32,000 nucleotides of DNA from Fibrobacter succinogenes subsp. succinogenes S85 (GTDB taxonomy: Bacteria; Fibrobacterota; Fibrobacteria; Fibrobacterales; Fibrobacteraceae), in assembly GCF_000146505.1 (NCBI RefSeq), contig NC_017448.1, forward strand, positions 1,950,001 through 1,982,000, given 5' to 3'. Within the stretch, counting starts at the first letter, position 1. Every line of letters starts with the position of its first letter. The position numbers were made by a program, and so were the translations under genes. The notes beneath the pieces are model-generated. The model was not told the DNA's origin and did not search any database. It saw only the letters and a list, made by a program, of their open reading frames with translations. Below are positions 466 to 14,720 of this stretch, in pieces.

Positions 466-1527
466 TTACAATTTCTTTTTCAGCACCTTCGCACAGGGCT
501 TTTCTACAAGTTCATGTAACGCAATTGCCATAACCGCGCACAACGCGACCGACATTACAATCTGCAATACGTTATTCTGGATATCGCACGCAGCAAACAG
601 CCAGTTCTCAATTTCAGTATTGAAAGTCTGCGCCAAGAAAAACGCATAGCTTGCCGCACTCGCATAACGAAGCACCGCAGAATTATGCAGCCGAGGTGAC
701 TTAAGCCCTGCTAGCGTTAAAATCATAAAGGCAAACAGCGGAATCACAATCCAGTCGTAAAGCATGTAATTGCCCACGAAAATATTCAGCCGCACGGCAA
801 TTGATATTCCTGCAACTAAAAGCAAAACTTCAACAAGCAAAGCTTTCCAAGTCGCAAGGATTTTCGCAATGCCATCGCGGATTGGCAACGAGCACAAAAG
901 CACGCCAATGAAAAATTCCAGCCCACGGAAAAACGGGTTCGAATAAATCGAGTCCGTCGAAAATGTATGCACGACAAGCGGAGACCAGAACAAAACCGCC
1001 GAGCATATTGCAAGCGACATCCACTTCGTGCGAGCCGTCATCTGCTTTACGATTTCTTGCATCAGCGGGAACGCCAAATACGCAAACAGCAGGCAAGAAA
1101 TAAACCAAGTCCCGCCATTATGGCTCACTGGGAACAGCGTCGAAAACACGCTTTGCAATCCCAAGATTTCAATCGGCAAAAGCACTAGATTCTGGAACAC
1201 CGATTCCTCCCCCAAGGTCACAACGTACAACACCGCCACGACCAAGTACAAAGGAAAAATTCCGAAAATGCGTTTCAGATAAAAGTTTTTGAGCGCCGGA
1301 GCCTGTACAAGCGATTTATCCTTGTACGTCAAGAACAGCACATAACCCGAAAGCATAAAGAACGCTGTCATGAACACGGCGCCCATCGAGACAAATCCCG
1401 TCAATGGTCCAAAATTGCTTTCGTGATGGATATTGCAATGGAACAGCAATACCATCACAGCGGCTACAACGCGAAAGAGGTCAAGCCCCGCCGCACGGTG
1501 TTGCATTTTGGACTTGTCGATAATCAC
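466..1527 (-). CDS. Acyltransferase family 3 (OafA/YrhL-type integral membrane O-acyltransferase)
   Basis: 353-aa ORF with about 10 hydrophobic helices. The N-terminal RAAGLDLFRVVAAVMVLLFHCNIH block is typical of the acyltransferase_3 family. Start is GTG at 1527 (1-nt overlap with the upstream stop) or ATG at 1506. Confidence 0.8.
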   Translation of the reverse strand: MIIDKSKMQHRAAGLDLFRVVAAVMVLLFHCNIHHESNFGPLTGFVSMGAVFMTAFFMLSGYVLFLTYKDKSLVQAPALKNFYLKRIFGIFPLYLVVAVLYVVTLGEESVFQNLVLLPIEILGLQSVFSTLFPVSHNGGTWFISCLLFAYLAFPLMQEIVKQMTARTKWMSLAICSAVLFWSPLVVHTFSTDSIYSNPFFRGLEFFIGVLLCSLPIRDGIAKILATWKALLVEVLLLVAGISIAVRLNIFVGNYMLYDWIVIPLFAFMILTLAGLKSPRLHNSAVLRYASAASYAFFLAQTFNTEIENWLFAACDIQNNVLQIVMSVALCAVMAIALHELVEKPCAKVLKKKL

Positions 1528-2651
1528 TAATCTTCTTCCTTGATGCCCATGAGCGTCATGGCAAGTTTCCAGGTTTCCTTGTTTTCAAAGCTGTCGCGCT
1601 TGCCGCCGCCGTAGCGGGCGTGCGCAAATTCCTCGAGCAGGGGCTTCCAGCCGTCCAGTTTGCCATCGGCCACAAGAGCATCTAGATTCACCGCGGAGGC
1701 GGCGGCAGTTCCTTCGGCAGCACCAAACTGGTGCAGAGCATATTCCTTGCAGATTCCTTCAAGTTCCAAGAGCCATTCGCGGCTATCGGCCACCATCACG
1801 CGCTGCTTCAAGACAACCATCTTCTCGCGTAACGCATTCTCAAATGCATTCTTCGCGGCAGTCGCTGCACGCAAATGAGCACGCTTGCGCATGCGCCACA
1901 ACGCAGCAAGCAGCACACAAACGCCTACCGCACCGCCTGCAATAAACGGCATCGCATTAAACGGCGCATCGACACGTATAGGCACGCTATCGCTACGCAA
2001 ATCAAGCGACTGCCCCATCGGCGTCGGAATTTCAAAACGCATGGCAGGGATGTTCAAGTTGCCCGTATCCTGCATAACGAGCTTGTAGTTGAACGTGATC
2101 TGCGCCATTTCCTTGCCGTCTTTTACCGATCGGCTAGATTCCTGCGACACGCCCAGCTGCAAAATGCCCTTCGCATTTGCTGAACTTGTCGGCACCACGA
2201 GAATCGCACTCCCGTTCACGCTCCACGAGACCGTCACCGGGAAAATAATCGTATCGCCTACAGTCGCCGAAAGCGGCACATTTCCAGTAGCACTTCCGGT
2301 AGCATTCCCTGCATCACCAGCATTTCCTACGTTTCCAGCTGTAATCGTAATCCCGAGCTGTTCAGCTGTCGGGAGCGCAGGCATACCCGCATCATTTCCC
2401 GCGGAATCACCGTCAACAGCACCTGCATCCAAATTGCCCGGAGCATTCAAACAATCCGGTTCTATCGCAAGGACATTCGTCGAATCTTTTTTTGTTGCAA
2501 CAAGCAACGAATCAGCATTTTTTTCTTGAGTCTCAGCCTTAGCTTTTTTAGCCTTGACAGGCTTCGCAGTCTTAGAATTCACGTTTTTTTCTTTCATACG
2601 TAATGAATATACAAAAAAGACGATAATAAAGGGGCTTGCCCAGAACAACAA
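1527..2651 (-). CDS. Hypothetical membrane-anchored protein, tentatively BatD/DUF4381-like
   Basis: 374-aa ORF. It has a Lys-rich and Gly/Asn/Ala-rich N-terminal region, a beta-rich middle part, one clear TM helix (FIAGGAVGVCVLLAALW followed by RMRKRAH) and a helical C-terminal domain. The TTG start at 2651 lies inside the U-tract of the upstream GH8 terminator, so ATG at 2597 (MKEKNV...) is an equally plausible start. Confidence 0.6.
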   Translation of the reverse strand: MLFWASPFIIVFFVYSLRMKEKNVNSKTAKPVKAKKAKAETQEKNADSLLVATKKDSTNVLAIEPDCLNAPGNLDAGAVDGDSAGNDAGMPALPTAEQLGITITAGNVGNAGDAGNATGSATGNVPLSATVGDTIIFPVTVSWSVNGSAILVVPTSSANAKGILQLGVSQESSRSVKDGKEMAQITFNYKLVMQDTGNLNIPAMRFEIPTPMGQSLDLRSDSVPIRVDAPFNAMPFIAGGAVGVCVLLAALWRMRKRAHLRAATAAKNAFENALREKMVVLKQRVMVADSREWLLELEGICKEYALHQFGAAEGTAAASAVNLDALVADGKLDGWKPLLEEFAHARYGGGKRDSFENKETWKLAMTLMGIKEED

Positions 2652-2723: not shown

Positions 2724-4172
2724 CTAGACTCCAGCCGGGCGAACGAACAGACCGTTCAGCAAGGCGGAATACATCGTGAGCAAGATATCCGAGAAGTAGC
2801 TCTGCGTCGTAAGCGAAGGCACCTTTGCGTTCAAGCCCGTCGTGCAGGTAGAAAGCCATGTTGCATTGCCTGCAATACCCGTAGCGCACCAAGCACCGTA
2901 CCACTGCGACGGAACAACCGTATTGCTCGTGTAGTCAGCACCGACAGCCAAATTCCAAGAGTAGTTGACGGCAAGAGCCATGTTATTCGGGTCACCGCTA
3001 GCCTTCTTCGAAATGAAGGAATTCAAAGTGGAGAGTACTGCGAGAGCGCGAGCATCCTGGTACCAGTAGTAGTCCCAAGCGATACGCCACGGAATACGCA
3101 CAGATTCCTTGTTGAACTGCCAGTAGGTCGTGTTTGCAGAACCGTTAGCAGGCTTGATTGCATTGCCAGCGCCATCGCTCCAGTCCGGGAACACGCCCGT
3201 ACCAGCATTCTGGACCTGCTGCATGTAAGCATACATTGCATTCAAGACACCCGTCCAGTTATGAGCAACGTCCACGATTGCAAAGAGACGGAGTGCCACC
3301 GGAGAGAAGTAGCTCAGGTTGTAAACCGGATTTGCGCCCTTCCACATATCTTCGTCACCAGAGTAGATGAGCAAGTTAGTCGGGTTCACTTCGGCATCCC
3401 AAATGGCATTGATCAAGCTCATAGCGTCTTGCAAGTACAAGGCGTTACCCGACTTGAAATACATAAGGATCAAAGCCGTCGCGATATCTTCATCGGCGTC
3501 TGTAGCACTGGAGTTATCGACTTCGGTCCAGTGGAACGACTGGGTGATCCACGGCATAAGCTTTCTGTTGGAATATTCCCTAAAAGCTCTGCTGTAATTC
3601 CACAAGCGGAGGAACGTGTCATCATCACCATTGAAGTAAGCCAAAAGCATACCGTAACCGATACCTTCCGACACCGTGCAAGCACGGGTCTTCATGTTCG
3701 GGACCGTAGTGGTGTTATCAGAGCAGTAGCTCTTGTAATAACCCGTCTGGCTAGACCAAACGACACGGCCCGCCGGCATATACACAGCCGGGAACACAAC
3801 GTTGAATTCCGTTGCGAGGGTCGGATACGTGATCATTTCCTGTTCTTCGGTCGTGAAGTGGAAGCTCTTCCACAATGCATAATGGTTCACGGCATAAGCA
3901 GGATTTGCAGTCGTGGCGAGCGGAGCATAAGTTCCAGTCGGGGTCGGAGTCGGCGTTGCAGAACTTGCCGGAGCCGGTGCAGAAGAAGTCGGAGCCGGAG
4001 TAGAGCTCGTCGGGAGCGGAGTATAAACAGAAGAGGAGCTCAACGTCGGGAAGATAACCGCAGAGCTCGGGGTCGGATTATTCGGAGCGCTCGGTGCGGC
4101 ATCGTCACCGCAGGCGCCAAAGAAAAATGCTGAGCCCACCAAAACAGGCAACAGGATTTTTTTGCAAACCAT
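2724..4172 (-). CDS. Glycoside hydrolase family 8 endo-beta-1,4-glucanase, lipoprotein with a Pro/Ser/Thr-rich linker
   Basis: 482-aa ORF. The signal peptide ends in a lipobox-like FFGAC and is followed by a long P/S/T/A linker. The GH8 catalytic-region motifs TVSEGIGYGMLLAYF and ATDADEDIATALILMY closely match the GH8 PROSITE-type signature A-[ST]-D-[AG]-D-x2-[IM]-A. Confidence 0.85.
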   Translation of the reverse strand: MVCKKILLPVLVGSAFFFGACGDDAAPSAPNNPTPSSAVIFPTLSSSSVYTPLPTSSTPAPTSSAPAPASSATPTPTPTGTYAPLATTANPAYAVNHYALWKSFHFTTEEQEMITYPTLATEFNVVFPAVYMPAGRVVWSSQTGYYKSYCSDNTTTVPNMKTRACTVSEGIGYGMLLAYFNGDDDTFLRLWNYSRAFREYSNRKLMPWITQSFHWTEVDNSSATDADEDIATALILMYFKSGNALYLQDAMSLINAIWDAEVNPTNLLIYSGDEDMWKGANPVYNLSYFSPVALRLFAIVDVAHNWTGVLNAMYAYMQQVQNAGTGVFPDWSDGAGNAIKPANGSANTTYWQFNKESVRIPWRIAWDYYWYQDARALAVLSTLNSFISKKASGDPNNMALAVNYSWNLAVGADYTSNTVVPSQWYGAWCATGIAGNATWLSTCTTGLNAKVPSLTTQSYFSDILLTMYSALLNGLFVRPAGV

Positions 4173-4212
4173 AAAAGCCTCTCATTAAATATCCCCAAAG
4201 CGGGGCTGGTAA

Positions 4213-4243
4213 ATGCCAAAGTAATATATATAAATATAGCTTT
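4213..4243 (-). promoter_or_regulatory. Candidate promoter/regulatory element upstream of GH8 (AAAGCTA - AT core - ACTTTGGCAT); shared with the GH5 upstream region
   Basis: The minus strand reads AAAGCTATATTTATATATATTACTTTGGCAT and ends about 40 nt upstream of the ATG at 4172. A similarly oriented element lies at 7755-7786 upstream of GH5. The AT core contains TATATT/TATATA -10-like hexamers. Confidence 0.3.
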
Positions 4244-4308
4244 TAAGGAAAGGCTGCAAGCAAAAATCAAGTTTACTTGTGAGCACAAACACGAGCTTCA
4301 ACATGCAG

Positions 4309-4330
4309 AAAAAGGCCGCTTGTGCGACCC
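4309..4330 (-). terminator. Intrinsic terminator after paralog A
   Basis: Minus-strand RNA reads GGUCGC-ACAA-GCGGCC followed by UUUUU. The stem contains a U-G wobble that can only form in the minus-strand transcript. Confidence 0.65.
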
Positions 4331-4357
4331 TTATTAAAAGATTTTTTGAATTTTAAA

Positions 4358-5326
4358 TCACTTCAGCACGATTTTATCTACGAAGTTGACAGACTTGCCG
4401 GTCACCTGGACCATGTACACACCCACATTGAGAGAAGAAAGATCTAGCGTAGAACCATTGTCAATGGAAGCCTTGACTACAACCTGCCCACGGATGTTCC
4501 TAACCTCGACCGAAGCGGCTGAATTTACGCCGGAAATCCCAAGATTACGCCCCAAGAGGGTCGCCTTGGCATTGGATGGTCCTCGAACGGAATTAATCGC
4601 ATCAGGAAAAATAGGACCACAACAGCCACAGCTTTTCGGGCAAGATCCATCGTACGGACCGATACCGCAGATGTTAAAGTCATACGTCCCCGGCTGAGCC
4701 TGCATCTTGAATTTCACCGAAACAAGCTGTTTTGCAGCCTCCTCACCTGAAATTTTCGTAGTTCCCTTGTACCAGGACGGCTGCGAAAAGCCAGACCAAG
4801 GAATAGCCTTGGATGCAGCAGCAGCGGCCGCCTTCGAAAGAGGAGCAGCCGGATTTGCGTAACCAATTGTAGCGTCAAACTCGCCGAGACCGAGTTCGAG
4901 AGACGGAGCAACTGAAGAAGTATAAGTAATGCAGAGGCCGCCCCAAGCAGAAGCATCACCTGGAACCGGATTACCAGAAGCGTCTTCACCAACGACGTTG
5001 AAACCAATACCGACAAAAGGATTATAGGTCAAAATGCCTTTATCGAGGACCGCAGAACCACAGATACCACCGCAGTGTTCAATAACAGGATCCATCGAAC
5101 CGTCATAAGCATTATAGGAGTCAGACTCAACCGGCCATACAACCTTCGAAGTACCACCATCGTCATTGTCATTATAACTGTACCAATACCCATGAGTATT
5201 GCTTTCATTACCAAGGCCCGTTTGAACCTGAGATTCCCCGTACCCACCATACCACGTTTCAAACTCACCTGCGAATACGGCAGAAACAACGAGCAACGCC
5301 GAAGCAGCAAAAATCTTCTTGTTCAT
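4358..5326 (-). CDS. Secreted protein of unknown function, paralog A: signal peptide, conserved ~210-aa Cys-containing domain, Cys-rich linker, Por/T9SS-type C-terminal sorting domain
   Basis: ORF track 4358..5350. The homologous start of all three paralogs is MNKK (ATG at 5326), preceded by an AGGAGG Shine-Dalgarno (plus-strand CCTCCT at 5333-5338). The signal peptide ends AVFA/GEF. The C-terminal ~70 aa (...LDLSSLNVGVYMVQVTGKSVNFVDKIVLK) matches the general pattern of T9SS C-terminal domains. Confidence 0.85.
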   Translation of the reverse strand: MNKKIFAASALLVVSAVFAGEFETWYGGYGESQVQTGLGNESNTHGYWYSYNDNDDGGTSKVVWPVESDSYNAYDGSMDPVIEHCGGICGSAVLDKGILTYNPFVGIGFNVVGEDASGNPVPGDASAWGGLCITYTSSVAPSLELGLGEFDATIGYANPAAPLSKAAAAAASKAIPWSGFSQPSWYKGTTKISGEEAAKQLVSVKFKMQAQPGTYDFNICGIGPYDGSCPKSCGCCGPIFPDAINSVRGPSNAKATLLGRNLGISGVNSAASVEVRNIRGQVVVKASIDNGSTLDLSSLNVGVYMVQVTGKSVNFVDKIVLK

Positions 5327-5377
5327 AACAATCCTCCTAGTCACAAGCACTCACAAACTAATATAGATTTTTTGACA

Positions 5378-6381
5378 TTACCTCAGCACGATTTTGTCTA
5401 CGAAGTTGACAGACTTGCCGATCACATGGACCATGTACACGCCCACATTGAGAGAAGAAAGGTCAAGCGTAGAGCCATTGTCAATGGAACCCTTGGCGAC
5501 CACCTGCCCCTGGATGTTCTTGACCTCGACTGTGGCAGCAGAATTTACGCCAAAAATACCGAGATTACGCCCCCAAAGTATCGCCTTGGCATTGGATGGA
5601 CCACGAGATGAATTAATCGCTAAATAATATTTATCAGGATTATCATATCCAAAAGCAACATTGTAACCAGGAGGACACGCACCACCACAACACATCGGGC
5701 AAGTTCCATCGTACGGGCCGATAGCGCAAATGTGAAGTCATACATCCCCGGCTGAGCCTGCATCTTGAATTTCACCGAAACAAGCTGTTTAGCGGCTTCT
5801 TCACCTGAAATTTTAGTAGTCCCCTTGTACCAAGACGGCTGCGTAAAGCCAGACCAAGGAATAACCTTATGAGCAACTCCAACAGCAGCCCTCGGAAGAG
5901 AAAACGACGGATTTGCATAACCGATTGTGGCGTCAAAGTCGCCAAGGCCGAGTTCAAGAGACGGAGCCGCCGAAGCAGAATAAGTGATACAGATGCCGCC
6001 CCAAGCAGAAGCATCACCAGCAACTGGATTACCAGAAGCGTCTTCACCAGCCACGTTGAAGCCGATACCGGCGAACGGATTATAGGTCAAAGCGCCTTTA
6101 GAAAGAGCTGCCGTACCACAGATACCGCCACAGTGTTCAATAACGGGGTCCAAGGCATCAGCAAATTGACTATTACCTATTTCGATCGACCCCGGCCATA
6201 TAATCTTAGATTCTCCCCCATCCTCATGATCATCGTAACTGAACCAGTACCCTTGAGTTTTGGTTTCGTTTTCAAGGCCAGTCTGAATCTGATAATCATC
6301 GCCATACCAGGTTTTAAACTCACCTGCAAACGCGGCAGAGACCGACAAAAGCGCCGTAGCAGCCACAAAACTCTTATTCAT
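5378..6381 (-). pseudogene. Paralog B of the same secreted protein family, interrupted by a 1-nt deletion (two ORFs, 5620..6381 and 5378..5695)
   Basis: The N-terminal ORF is colinear with paralogs A and C up to QAQPGMYDF and then goes out of frame. The ORF at 5378..5695 encodes the Cys-rich linker plus the sorting domain. Compared with paralog A (gatgttaaagtcata), this copy reads aaatgtgaagtcata at 5729-5743, so one base is missing near 5733-5735. Restoring it gives DF(N/H)ICAIGPYDGTCPMCCGGACPPGY... in frame. Confidence 0.8.
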
Positions 6382-6505
6382 AGAACACTCTCTCCTTACT
6401 CTATTGAATATAACATTTTATCAAACAAAAGAATAAGAAAATATGGATCCTATCACCTTCGGCTCCAGGATGACAAGGGCGAAAATAGCAGTGCTTAAAA
6501 TACAG

Positions 6506-6529
6506 AAAAGGGCCGCTTGCGCGACCCTT
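6506..6529 (-). terminator. Intrinsic terminator after paralog C
   Basis: Minus-strand RNA reads GGGUCGC-GCAA-GCGGCCC followed by UUUU. It has a GNRA tetraloop and a U-G wobble that forms only in the minus-strand transcript. Confidence 0.7.
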
Positions 6530-6555
6530 CTCTAAAGATTCTTAGGAATCCGAAA

Positions 6556-7485
6556 TTACTTCAGAACAATCTTGTTGGTGAAGTTGACGGACTTGCCAGC
6601 AACGCGAACCATGTAGACACCTGCATCGAGAGAAGCGAGGTTCATAGCAGAGGAAGCGTCACCCTTGGCGACAACCTGACCCTGGAGGTTCATGATTTCT
6701 GCGTTAGCAGCAGACTTCACACCAGAGAAGCTGAGGGTACGGCCAGTGAGGATAGCCTTAGCAGAGGAAGCACCGCGAACAGCCTTGATGGAAGCATTAC
6801 AAGAAGTCGGGCAGGTGCCACCAGCGTACGGACCGATAGCGCAGATGTTGAAGTCATAGTTACCAGCAGCAGCCTGGATCTTGAACTTAACAGCAACGAG
6901 CTGTGCAGCAGCGTCAGTACCGCTCATCTTTGTGGCACCCTTGTACCAAGACGGCTGAGTAAAGCCAGACCACGGAATAGACTTCGTTGCAGCAGCAGAA
7001 GCAGCCTTAGCGAGGGAAGCAGCCGGGTTTGCGTAACCGATGGTTGCGTCAACGTCGCCGAGACCGAGTTCAAGAGTCGGAGCAGCAGCGGAAGTATAAG
7101 TAATGCAGAGGCCACCCCAAGCAGAAGCGTCACCCGGCACCGGATCACCAGAAGCGCCTTCGCCGACGACGTTGAAGCCGATACCGACGAACGGGTTATA
7201 AGTCAAGGAACCCTTAGCGAGAGCTGCAGTACCGCAGATACCGCCGCAGTGTTCAACAACCGGGTCCATAGCGGTAGCAGAGTATTCGTTACCGAGTTCG
7301 ACCGGCCAAACAACCTTGGATTCACCACCGTCACCGTCGTCGCCGTAGCTGAACCAGTAACCGTAGGTGTTCGTGTCGTTACCAATGCCAGTTTCAACCT
7401 GCGGAGCATCGCCCAGCCAGGTGTCAAATGCAAAAGCAGCAGAGGCAGCGAGAATTGCCGAAGCAATTGTGAGTTTCTTATTCAT
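6556..7485 (-). CDS. Secreted protein of unknown function, paralog C (same architecture as A, more diverged)
   Basis: 309-aa ORF with signal peptide MNKKLTIASAILAASAAFA. It shares the conserved blocks DPVVEHCGGICGTAAL, TYNPFVGIGFNVVGE, GDASAWGGLCITYTS, LELGLG..DATIGYANP and IPWSGFTQPSWYKG, and ends in the sorting domain ...LDAGVYMVRVAGKSVNFTNKIVLK. Confidence 0.85.
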   Translation of the reverse strand: MNKKLTIASAILAASAAFAFDTWLGDAPQVETGIGNDTNTYGYWFSYGDDGDGGESKVVWPVELGNEYSATAMDPVVEHCGGICGTAALAKGSLTYNPFVGIGFNVVGEGASGDPVPGDASAWGGLCITYTSAAAPTLELGLGDVDATIGYANPAASLAKAASAAATKSIPWSGFTQPSWYKGATKMSGTDAAAQLVAVKFKIQAAAGNYDFNICAIGPYAGGTCPTSCNASIKAVRGASSAKAILTGRTLSFSGVKSAANAEIMNLQGQVVAKGDASSAMNLASLDAGVYMVRVAGKSVNFTNKIVLK

Positions 7486-7754
7486 AATTCTCTCTCTTTT
7501 TTTAACTGTTTACCCAAATTGGGTGATTTGGACAACAATATATTTTTTTTTCTTCCAAAATGCCATACCTACAGCCGTTTGAAAAAAAAATTTACATAAC
7601 TGTTTGCAAACCGCCCTTTCCTTGATAATATACCACTTTGGCGACGTTCAAAGTACATACAAATTTGTTTACAAAATACTTCTGTGTTGTCCGTCACATG
7701 AAAGAGGAACGCAATTTTTTTATTACGATAGAAATCCTTGACTCCTGCGAGCAG

Positions 7755-7786
7755 AAAGCTACATTATATATAAATATACTTGCCAT
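7755..7786 (+). promoter_or_regulatory. Candidate promoter/regulatory element upstream of GH5 (AAAGCTA - AT core - ACTTGCCAT)
   Basis: The plus strand reads AAAGCTACATTATATATAAATATACTTGCCAT. It has the same flanks and the same orientation relative to its gene as the element at 4213-4243. It lies about 184 nt upstream of the ATG at 7970, which implies a long leader. Confidence 0.3.
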
Positions 7787-7969
7787 CCCGACAGGGCCTT
7801 GCGCAAAGCGGGATCCCACGTTGCAAGGGTGGCAAAAAACGGGGTAAAGGTGTACAACAGGCACAAAGCCAACAGCCTTGTGTTCAATAGTAAACAAAAA
7901 ATTAGCCTAAATTGTTTACTATCTTCGATTTAATTAGATAATTTTTGTCAAAACAAAAGGAAAACACTC

Positions 7970-10204
7970 ATGAAATTGACAAAGCTTCTGACAAGCATCT
8001 TGGCAGGCGCGGCAATATCCGCCTTTGCAGCCGATGCATCGACAGCAACCCCCAAGAAAGTTGGGCCGGTCTCTTATTATGGCGCTCTCCATACAAGCGG
8101 CAGTAAGATCATTGGCGCCAAGAACAACCAGCAGGTCATGCTCCGCGGTGTGAGCCTTTTCTGGTCCGACGCAACGGGTCTTTCTTACTATAACCCAACC
8201 GTCATTTCATGGGTTGTAGACAATCTCAAAATTGACGTGTTCCGCTATGCCATGGGTATTGAATACTACGACTCCAATGGCGGCACCAAGAACAAGCTGG
8301 ACGATCAGGTTTCTTATACGAAGTCCCCGGAAGGCCAGCTCTCCACCATCGACAGAATGGTCCAGGCTGCTATCGAAAACGACGTCTATATCGTCATCGA
8401 CTGGCATAGCCACAGAGCTCACCTCGAAACAAACCTCGCCAAGGACTTCTTCGCCAAGATTTCCCAGAAATACAAAGATGTCCCGAACATCATCTACGAA
8501 ATCTACAACGAACCGGTCAGCGGTAGCGGTGGCGACTGGGGTGCCATCAAGAACTACGCCAACTCCGTCGTGCCGGCTATCCGTACCAACACGCAAAACT
8601 TGATCATCGTCGGTACGCCGAACTGGTCCCAGCATCCGGAACAGGGCGCAAGAGACCCGATCCAATCCACGAACATTGCTTACGTTTTGCACTTCTACGC
8701 CTCCAGCCACTCCAAGGGTAGCTTCGGCGGTTACGTCTCTAGCGCACTCAGCGCCGGTTATCCGGTGTTCATCTCTGAATGGGGTACCACCAACGCTGAC
8801 GGTGACGGCGAACCGAACTCCAGCGCAACAAACGAATGGACTCAGTTCATGGACCAGAACATGATTCCGAACTGCAACTGGAGCTTGCGTCAGCAGACTT
8901 CCGATGTGGACCAGAAGAGTGAAAAGTCCGCCATCTTCGCTGGCGACAAGTCCCTCATCACGGCCGCAGCCCTCGATGCAGCAACTTTCACCTCCTCGGG
9001 TAATATCATCAAGAGCTACCTCACCAAGAACGCACGTTCCTGGGCAGACTCCCTCGTCAAGGGCAAGAGCGGCAGCTGCTCCTTCAAGGCTACAACAGCC
9101 AAGCAGACTGACGGCAAGATTTCTGGAGTCCTCAAGTCCGGTTGTACTTACACCTCCAGCAACGAAAAGGTTGCTTCCGCTTCTGGCAGCGACATCGTCG
9201 TGGGCGACTATGGTTTCGCCATCCTCACTGGTAATGACGGTTCTCAGTCTATCGTGACGGTCAAGCAAGTTGCAGGCCAGACCATCACGAACCTCTCTGA
9301 TATCACTTGCAATTTCTCCGGTAGCTGCACGGCCGCCTCCAAGAACGGCATGTCTCGCGACTTTGACGGTGACGGTACCAAGGACTACCTCCTCACCATG
9401 GACGACAAGACCAATGAAGGCTCCAAGTTCACCCTCACTTCTCTTGACCCGACAACCGTTTCTGTAAGCAAGAACAAGTGCACTAACGCCAACTGCTCCA
9501 ACTCTCAGAAGAATCAGCAAGTTTGGATGTTGCACTTCCACAAGTACGGCACAGCCAAGGTCGTTGCATCTGCACCGGCAATTACAGGCTTCCGCGCCAT
9601 GCAGGACACCTTCGAAATCACTTACAAGAAGGGTTCCTACAACATGAACAACAAGTTCAAGGATCAGACCATCGCTCTTGGCGGAACCACTACAGAAGGA
9701 TTCCCGGATGCATTGCTCGGCAACGCCGTTACCTACACGTTCAACGGCCAGCCCACCACGCCTTACTTGACCAAGGTCGGCAACGCCTTCGTCGGTGGCG
9801 CCCAGAACGCAATCTTCGCTATTACGGCCCACATTGCAGAAACTGCCGACTACGAAGAATTCGAAAGAACTGTAACGGTTATCGTTGGCGACGCAGGCAC
9901 GGCAGTCAACTTGGCCGAATGGATTGCATACACCAACCCGATCGACGCCATCAAGCCGGCTAACAAGATTGTAAACAGCTTCAACGCCCGCATGGACGGT
10001 TCGATGCTCCAGTTCACGACCAAGAACACTGGCCTCGTGAAAGTTGACATCTATGACGCTCTCGGCGCAAGCGTGAAGCAGATGTCCGAAGTCTACGGCA
10101 AGGGCAGCCACGCTATCGACCTCAAGGGTCTCCCGAACGGCTCCTACACGCTCGTTGTCCGCCAGGGCAGCCAGAAGGCCTCCATCCGCTGGGTGAACAA
10201 GTAA
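7970..10204 (+). CDS. Glycoside hydrolase family 5 endoglucanase (cellulase): signal peptide, GH5 catalytic domain, ~330-aa uncharacterised middle region, Por/T9SS-type C-terminal sorting domain
   Basis: 744-aa ORF with signal peptide ...AISAFA/ADAS. GH5 hallmarks are present: VIDWHSH, IYEIYNEP (acid/base Glu181), GTPNWSQ, HFYASSH and FISEWGT (nucleophile Glu270). The C-terminus ...LPNGSYTLVVRQGSQKASIRWVNK resembles the sorting domain of the paralogs. An AAGGAAAA Shine-Dalgarno sits upstream of the ATG. Confidence 0.9.
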   Translation: MKLTKLLTSILAGAAISAFAADASTATPKKVGPVSYYGALHTSGSKIIGAKNNQQVMLRGVSLFWSDATGLSYYNPTVISWVVDNLKIDVFRYAMGIEYYDSNGGTKNKLDDQVSYTKSPEGQLSTIDRMVQAAIENDVYIVIDWHSHRAHLETNLAKDFFAKISQKYKDVPNIIYEIYNEPVSGSGGDWGAIKNYANSVVPAIRTNTQNLIIVGTPNWSQHPEQGARDPIQSTNIAYVLHFYASSHSKGSFGGYVSSALSAGYPVFISEWGTTNADGDGEPNSSATNEWTQFMDQNMIPNCNWSLRQQTSDVDQKSEKSAIFAGDKSLITAAALDAATFTSSGNIIKSYLTKNARSWADSLVKGKSGSCSFKATTAKQTDGKISGVLKSGCTYTSSNEKVASASGSDIVVGDYGFAILTGNDGSQSIVTVKQVAGQTITNLSDITCNFSGSCTAASKNGMSRDFDGDGTKDYLLTMDDKTNEGSKFTLTSLDPTTVSVSKNKCTNANCSNSQKNQQVWMLHFHKYGTAKVVASAPAITGFRAMQDTFEITYKKGSYNMNNKFKDQTIALGGTTTEGFPDALLGNAVTYTFNGQPTTPYLTKVGNAFVGGAQNAIFAITAHIAETADYEEFERTVTVIVGDAGTAVNLAEWIAYTNPIDAIKPANKIVNSFNARMDGSMLQFTTKNTGLVKVDIYDALGASVKQMSEVYGKGSHAIDLKGLPNGSYTLVVRQGSQKASIRWVNK

Positions 10205-10631: not shown

Positions 10632-11441
10632 TTACTTCTTAGAACGATGGCTGTTCTTGATCCATTCAGTCTTGTGGACTTCCGGAATGTCATCAAGCAA
10701 GCGGAGCGTATGCGGTTCGTTCGTGTTGTCGAGCACTTCAGCAGGAGTACCCTGGTTCACGATCTTACCGTCGTGCATGATGAAGATACGGTCAGAAACG
10801 TAGTTTGCAAGACCGATATCGTGGGTCACGAACACCACGGTCATCTTCAGCTCGTCTTTCAACTTGCGGAGGTAATCGAGGATGTTTGCACGAACGCAGG
10901 CGTCCACCATGGAGGTTGCTTCGTCAGCAATGAGGACCTTCGGACGGAGCGCGAAGATACGGGCGAGAAGCATACGCTGCATCTGACCACCAGAGAGTTC
11001 GAACGGATACTTACCTTCGATATCTGCCGGAGCGACGTTAACGGCCTTGAGACCTTCGTCAACGCGGCGACGTACTTCTTCCTTGGACGGCTTGTCCTTG
11101 AGGATGTTGAGAGCGTCTTCGAGCTGGCTACGGATTGTGAAGAACTGGTTAAAGCAGCCAAACGGGTCCTGGAAAACGGACTGGACTTCGTTCCAGTGGT
11201 CCTTCAGGTTCTTGATCGGCTTGTCGCGATAGAGGAACTGACCGCGAGTCGGCTGGTAAAGGCCGAGCATGATCTTAGCAAGCACGGACTTACCGCAACC
11301 AGAACCACCCACGATGGAGATGAATTCTTCGTCATAGATGTCAAAGGAAACATCCTTAACAGCAGTCTTCAAGCTCTTGCCGGCACCGAAATCCTTGCTG
11401 ATGCGCTTGGCAGAAAAAACAATGGGCTTATCACTTTGCAT
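10632..11441 (-). CDS. ABC transporter ATP-binding protein, OppF/DppF-like
   Basis: 269 aa with Walker A GGSGCGKS, signature LSGGQMQR and Walker B LIADEATSMVD. It overlaps the upstream ATPase gene by 11 nt. Confidence 0.9.
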   Translation of the reverse strand: MQSDKPIVFSAKRISKDFGAGKSLKTAVKDVSFDIYDEEFISIVGGSGCGKSVLAKIMLGLYQPTRGQFLYRDKPIKNLKDHWNEVQSVFQDPFGCFNQFFTIRSQLEDALNILKDKPSKEEVRRRVDEGLKAVNVAPADIEGKYPFELSGGQMQRMLLARIFALRPKVLIADEATSMVDACVRANILDYLRKLKDELKMTVVFVTHDIGLANYVSDRIFIMHDGKIVNQGTPAEVLDNTNEPHTLRLLDDIPEVHKTEWIKNSHRSKK

Positions 11442-12429
11442 AATCGCACCTCACGTCACGATCGCCGACAATGCGGAGATTCTGGGTATTCTTCTTGCAG
11501 TCCGGGCATGCCTTGCTGCAACGCGGAGCGAAGCGGCAGCCCACAATCTTGTTCTTGAGGCTAGGAGGAGCACCTTCGATAGCCACCGGATGACGGCCAC
11601 GCTGGCTTGCCTCGGTACTGAGCATAGCGCCCATCAAAGCCTGCGTATACGGATGACGCGGGTCCTTGACGACCTGTTCTGCAGTACCCTTTTCCACGAT
11701 TTCGCCTGCATACATAATGGCGATGTTGTCTGCCACGTGGTAGAGGAGCGGAAGTTCGTGGGTAATGAAGATCATCGATTGGAAGATGCCCTTGTCGAGC
11801 AAGTCGAAGATCATCTTGATCACTTCCTTCTGCGTGGAAACGTCCAAAGCAGAAGTCGGTTCGTCAGCAATCACCATCTTCGGGAGAAGAATCGTAGAGA
11901 TTGCAATCACGCAACGCTGGCGTTCACCTGCAGTAAGGTTGATCGGGAAGGAATTGAGCACGCGCTTGGTATCCATACCGATACGGTCGAAGTGAGCATA
12001 GACACGATCGTAGATCTGCTTAGCATCAAGCTTCTCACCCGGCTTCAAGTGAGCCTTGAGCACGTCGGCGGCGATATCCTTGATCTTGCGAACCGGGTTC
12101 AATGCGTTGAATGCGCCCTGCGGAATCATGGAGACCTGCTGAGCGAGGACATTCGCGCGAACATCTTCGATGCTGCGGTTCATGAGGGATTCCATCTTGT
12201 CGCCGTTCTTGACGCGAACGTCACCCGTTTCCGGGTAAAGCGGCGGGATGCACATGCCCATGAGACCAGAAACGAGCGTAGACTTACCGCAACCAGATTC
12301 ACCGGCGATACCGAGAATTTCCCCCTGCTTCATGGAGAAGGACACGTCTGTAACAGCGTGAGTCTTGTCTCCAAAACGGCCGAGGTAATAAAGACCCAAG
12401 TGGTCAACTTCAAAAACATTTTCAGACAT
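11431..12429 (-). CDS. ABC transporter ATP-binding protein, OppD/DppD-like, with the Opp-type C-terminal extension
   Basis: 332 aa with Walker A GESGCGKST, a degenerate signature LTAGERQR, Walker B VIADEPTSALD and a C-terminal Cys-containing tail (GCRFAPRCSKACPDC) as seen in OppD/DppD. Confidence 0.9.
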   Translation of the reverse strand: MSENVFEVDHLGLYYLGRFGDKTHAVTDVSFSMKQGEILGIAGESGCGKSTLVSGLMGMCIPPLYPETGDVRVKNGDKMESLMNRSIEDVRANVLAQQVSMIPQGAFNALNPVRKIKDIAADVLKAHLKPGEKLDAKQIYDRVYAHFDRIGMDTKRVLNSFPINLTAGERQRCVIAISTILLPKMVIADEPTSALDVSTQKEVIKMIFDLLDKGIFQSMIFITHELPLLYHVADNIAIMYAGEIVEKGTAEQVVKDPRHPYTQALMGAMLSTEASQRGRHPVAIEGAPPSLKNKIVGCRFAPRCSKACPDCKKNTQNLRIVGDRDVRCDYAK

Positions 12430-12439
12430 TTTTTACCTC

Positions 12440-13285
12440 TTACTTGCGCAGACGCGGGTTGAAGACGCCTTCCATAGAAGTGTTAATCAAGTACAGAGCA
12501 AACACCGTGAGGGTAACGACGATCGTTGCCGGGATGAATGCAATCCAGATGGAGTCGGAGAGAGCACCGTTATCCTTAGCCTGGTTCAAGATGATGCCGA
12601 AGCTAGTGGAATCGACAGGGCCAAGACCGATCATGGAGATGGATGCTTCGGAAAGAATACCGGAAGACACCTGCATGATGAACACCATGAACACGTACGA
12701 GAGCAAGTACGGAAGCACATGCTTGATCACAATCGTGAGAGTCGATGCACCGTTGAGGCGGGCAAGGGCAATGTGGTCGCGGCTACGGAGAGAAGAAGCC
12801 TGAGCACGAACGGCACGGGCAGACCAGCTCCAAGCGGTAAGACCGATGATGAGACCAATCAAGGTGAGGGAACGGCCATCCTTAACAGCGGAGCTGATAA
12901 GAACGAGAATCACGAACTGCGGGATAACGATGAAGATGTTGGTGAGCATGTTCAATACTTCATCAACCCAGCCACCGCGGAAACCGCCGAACAAGCCGAT
13001 AAGCACACCGATAGTCGTAGCAATGATACCTGCAACGAAGCCCACATAGAGGGAGCTGCGGAGACCGGCGATCAAGAGGGACACGTAGTCACGGCCGAGG
13101 TGGTCCGTGCCGAGCCAGTGAGCAGAGCTAGAACCTGCATACGGGCCAGCGACGATGTCACGAGCGTGAGTATCTACGTTGTAGAAAAGAGGTCCAAAGA
13201 TGGCGATGAGGAGCGTGAGCACAAAGATGGACACGCCAATCACGAACATCGGGGACTTGAGAAGGTTTCTTAAAAGCTTACCCAT
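12440..13285 (-). CDS. ABC transporter permease, OppC/DppC-like
   Basis: 281 aa and polytopic. It contains the binding-protein-dependent transport EAA-like region (ALARLNGASTLTIVIKHVLP). Confidence 0.85.
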   Translation of the reverse strand: MGKLLRNLLKSPMFVIGVSIFVLTLLIAIFGPLFYNVDTHARDIVAGPYAGSSSAHWLGTDHLGRDYVSLLIAGLRSSLYVGFVAGIIATTIGVLIGLFGGFRGGWVDEVLNMLTNIFIVIPQFVILVLISSAVKDGRSLTLIGLIIGLTAWSWSARAVRAQASSLRSRDHIALARLNGASTLTIVIKHVLPYLLSYVFMVFIMQVSSGILSEASISMIGLGPVDSTSFGIILNQAKDNGALSDSIWIAFIPATIVVTLTVFALYLINTSMEGVFNPRLRK

Positions 13286-13287
13286 GA

Positions 13288-14703
13288 TTACTTACCTCCC
13301 ATCTGGAGACCGGCCTTGACACGCGGGTCAAAGACAGCGATCAAAACGTCAACTGCAAAGTTTGCAACGAGAACGCAGGTAGAAATCATCAAGGTGCAAC
13401 CCTGGATCGTTGCGTAGTCGTTCTTCTGAATGGCATTGAGCATTGCCATACCGAGACCCGGATAAGAGAAGATCATTTCGGTAATGAGAGCGCCACCCAC
13501 CATGGCACCGAGGCTCTGGGCAAGACCAGTGAGCTGCGGGAGCATAGCGTTGCGGAACACATAGCTAATAATCTTGCCTTCGCGGAGGCCGAGCCACTTA
13601 GCATACTTCATGTAGTCTGTACCGAGTTCGTAAATGGACATGGAACGCATACCCGTTGCCTGACCAGAAAGAAGAATCGGGAACACAGAGAAGAACGGGA
13701 GCACGTAGTACCAGCTGACGCTCTTGAAGCAGGACCAGCTGAACGTGAGTTCCGGAATGTCCGGGCTGTAAGCGCCCATAGCCGGGAACCAGCCAAGCGT
13801 GATGGAGAAGAATGCCACGAGGAGCATACCGAACACGAAGAACGGCACACCGTTGAGGAACATGGCGCACGGGAAGAATACCTTGTCGAAAATGCCGCGC
13901 TTGTAAGCAGCGAAGGCACCGAGAAGGTTTCCCACGATCCAGCCGAGAAGAATCGTCGGAGCCTGGATAGCGAGCGTCCACGGGAGGGACTTCTTGATAA
14001 CGTTCGTCACCGGTTCGTTGTTCTGGTAAGAGAGACCGAGGTCGCCGTGGAACACGTTGCCCACATAGCGGAAGAACTGAGAAACTGCAGAAGCAAGCTT
14101 CGGATCGGTCTTCAAGACCGGCTGATCAACCATGACGGTATCGATGCGTTCGGCCTGAACCTTTTCCATGACCGGAATCTTTTCGACAGCAGCTGCAGCG
14201 ACAGCCTTAGCAGCCTTGCCCTTCTTGGCCTTGACCTTCTTAGCCTTCTTAGCTTTCTTGCCCTTCTTGCCCTTGTGATCGGCAGGAGCCTTTTCAACAA
14301 AGACCGGGTTGCCAGCTTCATCGAGCTTCTGGCGTTCGACCATCACCGGATTGCCGGCTTCGTCAACAACCTTCACGACGTTCACGACCGGCTGGCCGTT
14401 TTCGTCAAGCTGCGGAACCTTCTGCATGACAACGTTGCCGTTGGCGTCAGTTTCCGGTTCATAGATAACGTTACCATTTTTGTCCAATTCAGCCATGCCG
14501 AAAGAGACGAGGAGTTCAGCCTTTTTCTTCTGAGCTTCAGTCGGAGAAAGGCCCTTACCGGCTTGACCCATGATGATGTCAACCGGGTTGTTGTCGCCGA
14601 GACGCGGCAACGCGAAGTTGAGTGCCACTGCACAGACGAAGGTCAACAAGTACCAGAACGCCTTCTGCAGGACATAACGTAGCATAGGATATTGTTTAAG
14701 CAT
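13288..14703 (-). CDS. ABC transporter permease, OppB/DppB-like, with a ~130-aa insertion in the first extracytoplasmic loop
   Basis: 471 aa. The OppB-like N-terminus (LRYVLQKAFWYLLTF...LPRLGDNNP) and the motif FHGDLGLSYQ are separated by about 170 aa, against a few tens of residues in typical OppB. The EAA-like region is KWLGLREGKIISYVFRNAMLP. An AAAGGA Shine-Dalgarno precedes the ATG at 14703. Confidence 0.85.
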   Translation of the reverse strand: MLKQYPMLRYVLQKAFWYLLTFVCAVALNFALPRLGDNNPVDIIMGQAGKGLSPTEAQKKKAELLVSFGMAELDKNGNVIYEPETDANGNVVMQKVPQLDENGQPVVNVVKVVDEAGNPVMVERQKLDEAGNPVFVEKAPADHKGKKGKKAKKAKKVKAKKGKAAKAVAAAAVEKIPVMEKVQAERIDTVMVDQPVLKTDPKLASAVSQFFRYVGNVFHGDLGLSYQNNEPVTNVIKKSLPWTLAIQAPTILLGWIVGNLLGAFAAYKRGIFDKVFFPCAMFLNGVPFFVFGMLLVAFFSITLGWFPAMGAYSPDIPELTFSWSCFKSVSWYYVLPFFSVFPILLSGQATGMRSMSIYELGTDYMKYAKWLGLREGKIISYVFRNAMLPQLTGLAQSLGAMVGGALITEMIFSYPGLGMAMLNAIQKNDYATIQGCTLMISTCVLVANFAVDVLIAVFDPRVKAGLQMGGK

Positions 14704-14720
14704 TGGTAGTCCTTTATCCT

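What the first reader, a model, noticed from the sequence alone, without database searches (positions are those of the whole stretch)
2724..10204. Three tandem secreted paralogs of unknown function sandwiched between a GH8 and a GH5 cellulase: candidate cell-surface cellulose-capture or processing module
Seen in the sequence:
- Three head-to-tail genes (4358-5326, 5378-6381, 6556-7485) encode the same architecture. Each has a signal peptide, a conserved ~210-aa domain, a Cys-rich linker and a ~70-aa C-terminal sorting domain.
- The conserved domain has invariant blocks: GYW[YF]SY.D..DGG.SK..WP, DPV[IV]EHCGGICG, TYNPF.GIGFNV.GE.ASG.PV.GDASAWGG.CITY, LELGLG..DATIGYANP, IPWSGF.QPSWYKG.
- The same type of sorting domain ends the divergently transcribed GH5 cellulase.
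- The other flank is a lipoprotein GH8 endoglucanase with a PT-linker.

I do not recognise the 210-aa domain as any named CBM or enzyme family. Its Trp/Tyr/Gly-rich, beta-strand-like block pattern would fit a beta-sandwich carbohydrate-binding fold, but that is only an inference.

The mechanism by which Fibrobacter-type bacteria attach to cellulose and feed cellodextrins across the envelope, without cellulosomes or classical PULs, is not fully resolved. A multi-copy, surface-targeted unknown protein embedded between cellulases and next to an importer is a plausible missing component.
Basis: partly seen in the sequence, partly recalled or inferred. Interest (0 to 1): 0.72.

Follow-up and report, generated by a model that had tools for sequence, protein, structure and literature searches.

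The report
Secreted CBM-like proteins between Fibrobacter cellulases
Three tandem genes in the rumen cellulose-degrader Fibrobacter succinogenes S85 encode secreted proteins whose unnamed 205-residue domain is predicted to fold like a glucan-binding module; one is very highly expressed, sits between two cellulase genes in at least 34 Fibrobacter genomes, and has never been studied.

Summary
The window is Fibrobacter succinogenes S85, the FSU_ assembly. The three paralogs are FSU_1682/Fisuc_1221 (A), FSU_1683/Fisuc_1222 (B) and FSU_1684/Fisuc_1223 (C). They lie between the GH8 gene Fisuc_1219 and the GH5 cellulase FSU_1685.

- **Observation:** it holds, with one correction. B carries a 1-base deletion at 5734 in this assembly. 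It is intact (334 aa) in the other S85 assembly.
- **Architecture:** each protein has a signal peptide, a 205-aa domain, a Cys-rich linker and a T9SS type A sorting domain.
- **Domain:** it has no Pfam, NCBIfam or PDB sequence match. A confident AlphaFold model (pLDDT 92) is a beta-jelly-roll closest to CBM11 and CIA30. Divergent relatives hit Pfam CIA30.
- **Family:** the named and genome-resolved members are all Fibrobacter, with 727 representative clusters. None of 149 scanned is fused to a glycoside hydrolase.
- **Synteny:** GH5 | domain gene | GH8 is kept in 35 loci from 34 genomes, usually with one copy. C is the ancestral copy.
- **Published omics:** C mRNA exceeds both neighbouring cellulase mRNAs. 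C protein is found in outer-membrane and extracellular fractions.

The most likely role is a non-catalytic glucan-binding surface protein. Binding has not been tested.

The parts
6556..7485 (-). Paralog C = FSU_1684/Fisuc_1223, 309 aa. Signal peptide, CBM11/CIA30-like domain (about 6826-7431), Cys-containing linker, T9SS type A sorting domain (about 6559-6729). This is the ancestral, highly expressed copy.
   Evidence: ORF. TIGR04183 at 34.3 bits. Domain HMM E = 9e-113. Identity to S85 proteins. Orthologues in other species are closest to C in 26 of 30 cases. Mean rlog expression 13.99. RPKM 8203 on cellulose against 1818 on glucose, and protein in outer-membrane, periplasm and extracellular fractions.
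5378..6381 (-). Paralog B = FSU_1683/Fisuc_1222. Same architecture, but split into two ORFs in this window by a missing base at 5734. It is intact (334 aa) in CP001792.1.
   Evidence: Domain HMM E = 2.5e-105. Sorting domain in the 5378-5695 frame, TIGR04183 at 37.5 bits. Protein unique to the extracellular medium.
4358..5326 (-). Paralog A = FSU_1682/Fisuc_1221, 322 aa. Signal peptide, domain (about 4649-5269), Cys-rich linker (6 Cys), T9SS sorting domain (about 4361-4528).
   Evidence: AF2 models.
6503..6534 (-). Terminator-like hairpin (14 pairs, 7 G-C, then a T-rich tail) about 20 nt after the stop codon of C. A promoter-like site at 6447-6476 lies ahead of B.
   Evidence: It fits C mRNA being about 30-fold higher than B and A. 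It is a consensus match only.
7486..7969 (.). Divergent intergenic region between paralog C and the GH5 gene. It presumably holds both promoters. No Rfam family matches.
7970..10204 (+). GH5 cellulase FSU_1685/Fisuc_1224, 744 aa. Catalytic domain, about 350 aa of unannotated middle region, T9SS sorting domain.
   Evidence: PF00150 at 1e-50, PF18962 and TIGR04183. Cellulase activity shown in Suen 2011. More abundant on cellulose and part of a vesicle complex.
2724..4172 (-). GH8 endoglucanase Fisuc_1219, 482 aa. Lipobox-like N-terminus and a Pro/Thr/Ser linker.
   Evidence: PF01270 at 6e-27. Sequence. Unique to the extracellular medium. Mean rlog expression 11.31.
10632..16538 (-). Opp/Dpp-type ABC importer FSU_1687-1691: two ATPases, two permeases and a family-5 solute-binding protein. 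It has been proposed in the literature as a cellobiose/cellodextrin importer.
   Evidence: ORFs. Pfam annotations in the L070 gene table. Raut 2019 Table 4. Raut 2015. Adjacency is seen only in the closer relatives, within the 10-kb flanks.
1527..2651 (-). BatD-like membrane protein. It is syntenic with the cluster in most species and is probably unrelated in function.
   Evidence: PF13584 at 5e-6. Synteny.

Best explanation
FSU_1684 and its two recent duplicates are non-catalytic glycan-binding proteins of the Fibrobacter cell surface and vesicles.

Proposed steps:
1. The signal peptide takes each protein into the periplasm.
2. The C-terminal type A sorting domain hands it to the type IX secretion system. 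The protein is then either released or attached to the outer membrane.
3. The 205-aa beta-jelly-roll, a divergent and unclassified branch of the CBM11/CIA30 superfamily, binds single beta-glucan chains such as amorphous cellulose, cellodextrins or mixed-linkage glucan.
4. Because the protein is very abundant, it holds substrate or cells close to the co-located GH5 (FSU_1685) and GH8 (Fisuc_1219) endoglucanases.

What is shown: the domain architecture, the fold class, the genus-wide gene order, the high expression, and presence in outer-membrane and extracellular fractions.

What is inferred: glycan binding, ligand identity and cooperation with the cellulases.
For: - **Sorting domain:** TIGR04183 is above its cut-off in all three proteins and in the GH5. 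This domain, historically called BTD or Fpm-1, has been proposed as the T9SS signal of S85 cellulases.
- **Fold:** the domain model has pLDDT 92 and pTM 0.88. Top PDB matches are CtCBM11 (1v0a, E = 9e-6, probability 1.0), CIA30/NDUFAF1 (TM 0.55/0.53), CBM61, a laminarin-binding CBM, CBM29 and CBM30. The full-length model also hit CBM4 and CBM11.
- **Sequence bridge:** P0146, with four copies of the domain plus a sorting domain, scores 47.5 bits on Pfam CIA30 (cut-off 24), over the same residues as a domain copy. Seven of 20 single divergent domains hit CIA30, best 1.6e-4. CIA30 and CBM_11 share CDD superfamily cl15292.
- **No catalytic signature:** across members about 30% identical, the invariant residues are W6, F90, W109, G111, Y116 and W158. 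No invariant acid, His or Cys pair is present.
- **Gene order:** GH5 | domain gene | GH8 is kept in 35 complete loci of 34 genomes, down to 42-50% domain identity. A second locus type puts tandem copies next to three GH43 genes, two of which also carry CBM6.
- **Expression:** mean rlog is 13.99 for C, against 11.46 for the GH5, 11.31 for the GH8 and 13.24 for the major GH8 Fisuc_1802. RPKM is 4.5-fold higher on cellulose than on glucose in batch culture, like the GH5 at 5-fold.
- **Location:** C protein is in outer-membrane, periplasm and extracellular fractions. In a surface-biotinylated envelope proteome it appeared only in cells grown on acid-swollen cellulose.
- **Selection:** dN/dS is 0.19-0.27.
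Against: - No binding experiment exists.
- The window proteins do not reach Pfam CBM_11 or CIA30. TM-scores to CBMs are modest, at 0.4-0.55.
- None of 149 family representatives carries a GH, PL or CE catalytic domain. Fusion partners are Fib_succ_major, beta-helix, Flg_new and PKD domains and lipoprotein anchors.
- Several family loci have no glycan genes nearby.
- In growth-rate-controlled chemostats, expression is the same on cellulose, cellobiose and glucose.
- Conserved order also includes the unrelated BatD-like and acyltransferase genes.
- CIA30 itself is a protein-assembly factor, not a lectin.
Confidence: 0.5

Rival explanations
1. The domain is a protein-protein interaction or structural module of the Fibrobacter envelope, for example a coat or scaffold component, or an assembly helper like CIA30. 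It has no direct glycan binding. Its position between GH5 and GH8 would be inherited gene order.
For: - The best TM-score is to the complex I assembly factor NDUFAF1/CIA30, at 0.55/0.53.
- Fusion partners are surface-protein modules (Fib_succ_major, PKD, Flg_new), never catalytic CAZyme domains.
- Many members are predicted lipoproteins in loci without glycan genes.
- The BatD-like and acyltransferase genes are syntenic too.
- Expression is constitutive in chemostats.
- FSU_1685 is reported in a multi-protein vesicle complex.
Against: - Apart from CIA30, all the top structural matches are carbohydrate-binding modules.
- CIA30 Pfam hits in rumen data co-locate with cellulase domains and share a superfamily with CBM11.
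- A second independent locus type pairs the family with GH43 genes, two of them carrying CBM6.
- Transcripts rise 4.5-fold on cellulose in batch culture, together with the GH5.
Confidence: 0.22
2. The domain binds a glycan, but not cellulose. The ligand would be hemicellulose such as arabinoxylan or mixed-linkage glucan, or the bacterium's own capsule or LPS glycan. The proteins would then serve general plant-cell-wall attachment or envelope organisation rather than cellulose capture.
For: - Tandem family members lie next to three GH43 genes, two of them carrying CBM6, in three genomes.
- The structural neighbours include modules that bind laminarin, galactan, mannan and mixed-linkage glucan.
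- The family has many subfamilies, which may differ in specificity.
Against: The subfamily in this window is always between a GH5 cellulase with shown cellulase activity and a GH8. It was detected on surface-labelled cells only on acid-swollen cellulose.
Confidence: 0.18
3. The domain is an unrecognised enzyme, a new beta-jelly-roll glycoside hydrolase, lyase or oxidative enzyme acting on cellulose.
For: - Old annotations call FSU_1682 and a UWB2 homologue 'endoglucanase (domain protein)'.
- Within the GH-linked subfamily several acidic residues are invariant: D34, D37, E125 and D132.
- Jelly-roll GH families exist (GH11, GH12, GH16; from general knowledge).
Against: - Across the wider family no acidic, His or Cys residue is invariant, and only D34 is nearly so.
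- No GH11, GH12 or GH16 structure is among the top 50 PDB matches.
- The 'endoglucanase' name probably reflects the shared sorting domain. This is inference.
Confidence: 0.05

Closest known systems
CBM11 (e.g. CtCBM11 of Clostridium thermocellum Lic26A-Cel5E, PDB 1v0a; CBM11 modules are annotated in F. succinogenes cellulases FSU_0382, FSU_2772 and FSU_2914)
   Same: It is a beta-jelly-roll of similar size and the best Foldseek match (E = 9e-6, probability 1.0). It occurs in a cellulolytic organism next to GH5. CBM11 shares a CDD superfamily with CIA30, which relatives of this domain hit.
   Different: There is no match to Pfam CBM_11 for the window proteins or for any of the family members scanned. 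TM-scores are only 0.41/0.48. The domain is stand-alone or fused to a sorting domain or lipoprotein anchor, never to a catalytic module. Binding is untested.
CIA30 / NDUFAF1 family (Pfam PF08547)
   Same: It is the only Pfam family reached by sequence, through divergent family members. It also gives the best TM-score, 0.55/0.53.
   Different: The window proteins themselves do not hit the model. CIA30 is a mitochondrial assembly factor. These are secreted bacterial proteins with a T9SS sorting domain.
Non-catalytic CBM-only and cellulose-binding proteins of F. succinogenes (e.g. Fisuc_1525 with CBM30; fibro-slime proteins)
   Same: They are secreted, non-enzymatic and found in envelope and extracellular proteomes of cellulose-grown cells.
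   Different: Those proteins carry CAZy-classified or experimentally cellulose-binding domains. Fisuc_1221-1223 are listed only as hypothetical proteins and are not in the CBM-only table of the genome paper.
Surface glycan-binding proteins of Bacteroidota polysaccharide utilisation loci (SusE/F-like)
   Same: They are a functional analogue: abundant, non-catalytic, surface-exposed binding proteins encoded beside the glycoside hydrolases and an importer.
   Different: Those are lipoproteins next to a SusC/SusD pair. Here there is no SusC/D within the 20-kb locus. Anchoring is by a T9SS sorting domain, and the neighbouring importer is an inner-membrane ABC system.
T9SS cargo proteins with a type A C-terminal domain (P. 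gingivalis RgpB; Fibrobacter and Cytophaga cellulases)
   Same: The C-terminal domain matches TIGR04183/PF18962. In the full-length model it matches the RgpB C-terminal domain and a T9SS-bound NucA C-terminal domain.
   Different: The cargo is a small, unclassified binding-type domain rather than an enzyme.

Membership tests
T9SS type A cargo | C-terminal sorting domain matching TIGR04183 / PF18962 above the curated cut-off | tested here: met
   TIGR04183 scores 38.4 (A), 37.5 (B, second frame) and 34.3 (C) bits against a cut-off of 23. PF18962 scores 31.6, 31.5 and 26.8 bits against 27.
T9SS type A cargo | N-terminal Sec signal peptide | tested here: met
   MNKK...SAVFA|G is read directly from the sequence. 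SignalP cleavage at 19-20 is reported for FSU_1684 in Raut 2015 S2. No predictor was run here.
T9SS type A cargo | T9SS machinery in the genome, with cleavage of the sorting domain and attachment or release | not tested
   It is not encoded in the window. Raut 2019 proposes T9SS export for S85 cellulases from missing C-terminal peptides.
CBM11 (CAZy / Pfam PF03425) | Significant sequence similarity to family members | tested here: not met
   There is no CBM_11 hit at E <= 0.1 for the window proteins. There is none among 51 + 98 representatives at E <= 0.001 or among 20 single domains at E <= 1.
CBM11 (CAZy / Pfam PF03425) | Beta-jelly-roll fold superposable on CtCBM11 | tested here: inconclusive
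   1v0a is the top Foldseek match (E = 9e-6, probability 1.0), but TM is 0.41/0.48 and rmsd 7.8 Å. This shows the same fold class, not a close match.
CBM11 (CAZy / Pfam PF03425) | Binds beta-1,4 and beta-1,3-1,4 glucan chains in a cleft lined with tyrosines | not testable with these tools
   No coordinates or binding data were available.
Carbohydrate-binding module in the CAZy sense | Contiguous module within a carbohydrate-active enzyme | tested here: not met
   None of the 149 best family representatives carries a Pfam GH, PL or CE catalytic domain.
CIA30 (Pfam PF08547) | Match to the Pfam model above the gathering score | tested here: inconclusive
   The window proteins give no hit. The relatives P0146 (47.5 bits) and P0178 (31.7 bits) exceed the cut-off of 24 only when their four copies are summed. 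Seven of 20 single domains hit at E <= 1, best 1.6e-4.
CIA30 (Pfam PF08547) | Fold similar to NDUFAF1 | tested here: met
   7zkp_A and 7zkq_A give TM 0.55/0.53 with probability 1.0.
Bacteroidota PUL surface glycan-binding protein | Encoded next to a SusC/SusD-like pair | tested here: not met
   The gene table of the 20.9-kb S85 locus lists no TonB-dependent receptor or SusD family.
GH5 and GH8 flanking genes | Match to PF00150 / PF01270 above the cut-off | tested here: met
   PF00150 scores 173 bits and PF01270 scores 95 bits. Cellulase activity of Fisuc_1224 is reported in Suen 2011.

The most novel reading that the evidence does not exclude
The 205-aa domain founds a new carbohydrate-binding family seen so far only in Fibrobacter. 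Its lead member, FSU_1684, is among the most highly expressed secreted proteins of the cell. It would be the main lectin that captures amorphous cellulose chains or cellodextrins at the cell and vesicle surface and presents them to FSU_1685 and Fisuc_1219. That would make it a so far overlooked component of Fibrobacter's cellulosome-free, PUL-free cellulose attack.
Probability: 0.3. Interest if true: 0.8.

Novelty: new variant of a known kind. Interest (0 to 1): 0.55.

Why it matters
How F. succinogenes binds and degrades crystalline cellulose without cellulosomes or classical PULs is still debated. Its omics papers repeatedly list abundant 'hypothetical' secreted proteins without follow-up.

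This work turns one such protein into a concrete, cheap experiment: a small soluble domain with a confident model to be tested for glucan binding.
- FSU_1684 mRNA is higher than that of the neighbouring cellulases and of the major GH8.
- The protein is secreted.
- Its gene is conserved between a GH5 and a GH8 across the genus.

If binding is shown, it would define a new CBM family. It would also explain a large set of Fibrobacter surface proteins, 727 representative clusters in all. If no glycan binding is found, the family still marks a major uncharacterised building block of the Fibrobacter envelope.

Tried and rejected
- **Direct family searches:** Pfam, NCBIfam and PDB sequence searches with the window proteins and with two profiles gave nothing for the N-terminal domain.
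- **RNA elements:** an Rfam scan of 4000-8200 found no riboswitch or other RNA element, for example c-di-GMP.
- **Literature:** no paper in the library names FSU_1682, FSU_1684, Fisuc_1221 or Fisuc_1223, or their accessions, in its main text. 'Endoglucanase domain protein' is not discussed anywhere. Jun 2007 is not held, and Arntzen 2017 has no PMC id in the reference list and was not looked up. The supplements of Raut 2019, Yeoman 2021 and the 2025 transcriptome paper hold nothing on these genes.
- **Pseudogene reading of B:** rejected, because the other S85 assembly has it intact, dN/dS is 0.25-0.27, and the protein was detected.
- **Single three-gene operon:** rejected, because of the terminator-like hairpin after C and the 30-fold expression gap.
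- **Taxonomy of distant members:** the second large protein search, with a divergent profile, returned mostly the same close Fibrobacter proteins and added nothing.
- **Dockerin hit:** a regex hunt for the single Dockerin_1-positive representative failed.

Full report
**Identity of the window.** Paralog C is identical to a protein of Fibrobacter succinogenes S85. The first 17.5 kb of the window match CP001792.1 at 99.989%, with no mismatches and two single-base gaps. Accessions tie the genes to locus tags (GH8 and GH5 tags).

| Gene | Locus tags | Note |
|---|---|---|
| Paralog A | FSU_1682 / Fisuc_1221 | 322 aa |
| Paralog B | Fisuc_1222 (334 aa) / FSU_1683 (truncated 253-aa call) | split in this window |
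| Paralog C | FSU_1684 / Fisuc_1223 | 309 aa |
| GH8 | Fisuc_1219 | |
| GH5 | FSU_1685 / Fisuc_1224 | |

The window is therefore the CP002158 assembly.

**Check of the observation.**
- The three minus-strand genes exist, and A and C are intact.
- B is split into 5620-6381 and 5378-5695 because one base is missing at 5734, next to the codon for the Asn of 'YDFNIC'.
- The other assembly has B intact. B evolves under purifying selection, with dN/dS of 0.25-0.27. Its protein was found in culture medium. An assembly error is the most likely cause.
- The proteins are 68-77% identical.
- The GH8 (PF01270) and the divergent GH5 (PF00150 plus the same sorting domain) are confirmed.
- The domain has no Pfam, NCBIfam or PDB sequence match.

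**What the domain is.**
- An AlphaFold model of the domain alone is confident, with pLDDT 92 and pTM 0.88, and is a beta-sandwich.
- Foldseek against the PDB ranks CBM11 first (1v0a, E = 9e-6). The CIA30 assembly factor NDUFAF1 follows with the best TM-score, 0.55/0.53. Then come CBM61, a laminarin-binding CBM, CBM29, CBM30 and the CBM-like N-terminal domains of GH50.
- The TM-scores are modest, so this is a fold-class assignment, not a close relative.
- A sequence bridge exists. A profile of the domain finds 727 representative clusters, 315 of them below 1e-30.
- Two four-copy relatives exceed the Pfam CIA30 gathering score over the same residues as a domain copy. Seven of 20 isolated divergent domains hit CIA30 weakly.
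- CIA30 and CBM_11 belong to one CDD superfamily, and both occur with cellulase domains in rumen metagenomes.
- Pfam CBM_11 itself is never hit, so the domain is not a CBM11 member.

**The wider family.**
- All named hits, and 67 of the 69 loci in the species-representative genome collection, are filed under Fibrobacter. The two exceptions look like mis-binned contigs.
- Proteins carry one to four copies of the domain.
- Among the 149 best representatives, partners are the T9SS sorting domain, the Fib_succ_major domain, beta-helix/Cthe_2159, Flg_new and PKD. None has a GH, PL or CE catalytic domain.
- Roughly 60% look like lipoproteins that end with the domain. This comes from a crude pattern match.
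- Across members about 30% identical, only W6, F90, W109, G111, Y116 and W158 are invariant. The CGGxCG motif is specific to the subfamily in this window, and there is no conserved catalytic-type residue set.
- The domain is thus a general surface-displayed, non-catalytic module of Fibrobacter. The window holds its T9SS-exported subfamily.

**Genomic context.**
- GH5 (divergent) | domain gene | GH8 | BatD-like is conserved in 35 complete loci from 34 genomes, plus five loci cut by contig ends. It holds down to 42-50% domain identity and 51-60% GH5 identity.
- Most species have one copy, four loci have two, and only S85-like strains have three. The single copies are closest to C in 26 of 30 cases. 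C is therefore ancestral, and A and B are recent duplicates.
- Six loci carry an extra divergent GH8-like gene.
- The Opp-type ABC importer lies within the flanks only in the closer relatives. Its ATPases are more abundant on cellulose, and the system has been proposed as a cellodextrin importer.
- Caveat: the BatD-like and acyltransferase genes are equally syntenic, so gene order alone does not prove functional coupling.
- A second locus type places two or three tandem family genes beside three GH43 genes, two of them carrying CBM6. Other loci have no glycan genes.

**Expression and location, from published data.**
- In chemostats, C has a mean rlog of 13.99 with a CV of 2%. This compares with 11.46 (GH5), 11.31 (GH8), 13.24 (the major GH8, Fisuc_1802) and about 9.0 (A and B). 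It does not change with substrate.
- A 14-bp terminator-like hairpin directly after C fits this gap.
- In batch culture, cellulose against glucose RPKM values are as follows.

| Gene | Cellulose | Glucose |
|---|---|---|
| C | 8203 | 1818 |
| GH5 | 551 | 107 |
| GH8 | 604 | 369 |
| A | 113 | 53 |
| B | 97 | 29 |

- C protein is in outer-membrane, periplasm and extracellular fractions. B and the GH8 are found only in the medium.
- In a surface-biotinylation proteome, FSU_1684 was seen only on cells grown on acid-swollen cellulose, with 3 peptides.
- All of these papers list the proteins as hypothetical. No paper in the library discusses them.

**Interpretation.**
- The best-supported reading, at about 0.5, is a non-catalytic beta-glucan-binding protein. 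It would be exported by T9SS, displayed or shed at high copy number, and act beside the GH5 and GH8.
- Rivals are a protein-interaction or coat module (about 0.22), a glycan binder with a non-cellulose ligand (about 0.18) and a hidden enzyme (about 0.05).
The claim of a cellulose-capture component remains untested, and the 'three-paralog module' is a strain-level expansion of a single conserved gene.

**Verdict.** This is a real and well-defined feature. It is an unclassified branch of a known fold superfamily in a known export architecture. It is of moderate to good interest because the lead protein is so highly expressed, is conserved next to cellulases and is easy to test.

Noticed in passing
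window 5734 and 16681: The window differs from S85 assembly CP001792.1 only by two missing bases. One frameshifts paralog B, giving the truncated FSU_1683 call. The other shortens a T7 run to T6 in an intergenic stretch.
   Followed up: yes
window 8930-9980 (GH5 FSU_1685, residues about 320-670): About 350 residues between the GH5 catalytic domain and the sorting domain have no Pfam hit. They are co-conserved with the catalytic domain in all syntenic loci (41-77% identity). This could be another unclassified binding region.
   Followed up: partly
L038, L043, L046, L049, L055, L056 (about 8690-9470 in locus coordinates): In six Fibrobacter genomes a second, divergent GH8-like gene (30-32% identical to the window GH8) is inserted between the GH5 and the domain gene.
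   Followed up: no
L006:2179-10882, also L007 and L008: A second conserved locus type has two or three tandem domain-plus-sorting-domain genes, divergently adjacent to three GH43 genes. Two of the GH43 proteins carry CBM6 and the third a ricin-type lectin domain.
   Followed up: partly
L049 (CAVJTH010000002.1) and L048 (JAGBQS010000272.1): These contigs are filed under Senegalimassilia and Bacteroidales but carry Fibrobacter-type genes. L049 has the full GH5 | domain gene | GH8 order and L048 the domain gene next to a GH8 fragment. They are probably mis-binned or mislabelled.
   Followed up: no
window 6503-6534 (-) and 6447-6476 (-): A strong terminator-like hairpin lies right after paralog C, and a promoter-like site lies ahead of B. 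This matches published mRNA levels, with C about 30-fold above B and A.
   Followed up: partly
representative proteins P0121-P0269: One of 98 family representatives has a Dockerin_1 hit (5e-7), which hints at a member outside Fibrobacter or in a cellulosome context. I could not identify which protein it was.
   Followed up: partly
window 10632-16538: The Opp/Dpp-type ABC system FSU_1687-1691 has been proposed in the literature as a cellodextrin importer. Its solute-binding protein is abundant in envelope proteomes on all substrates.
   Followed up: partly
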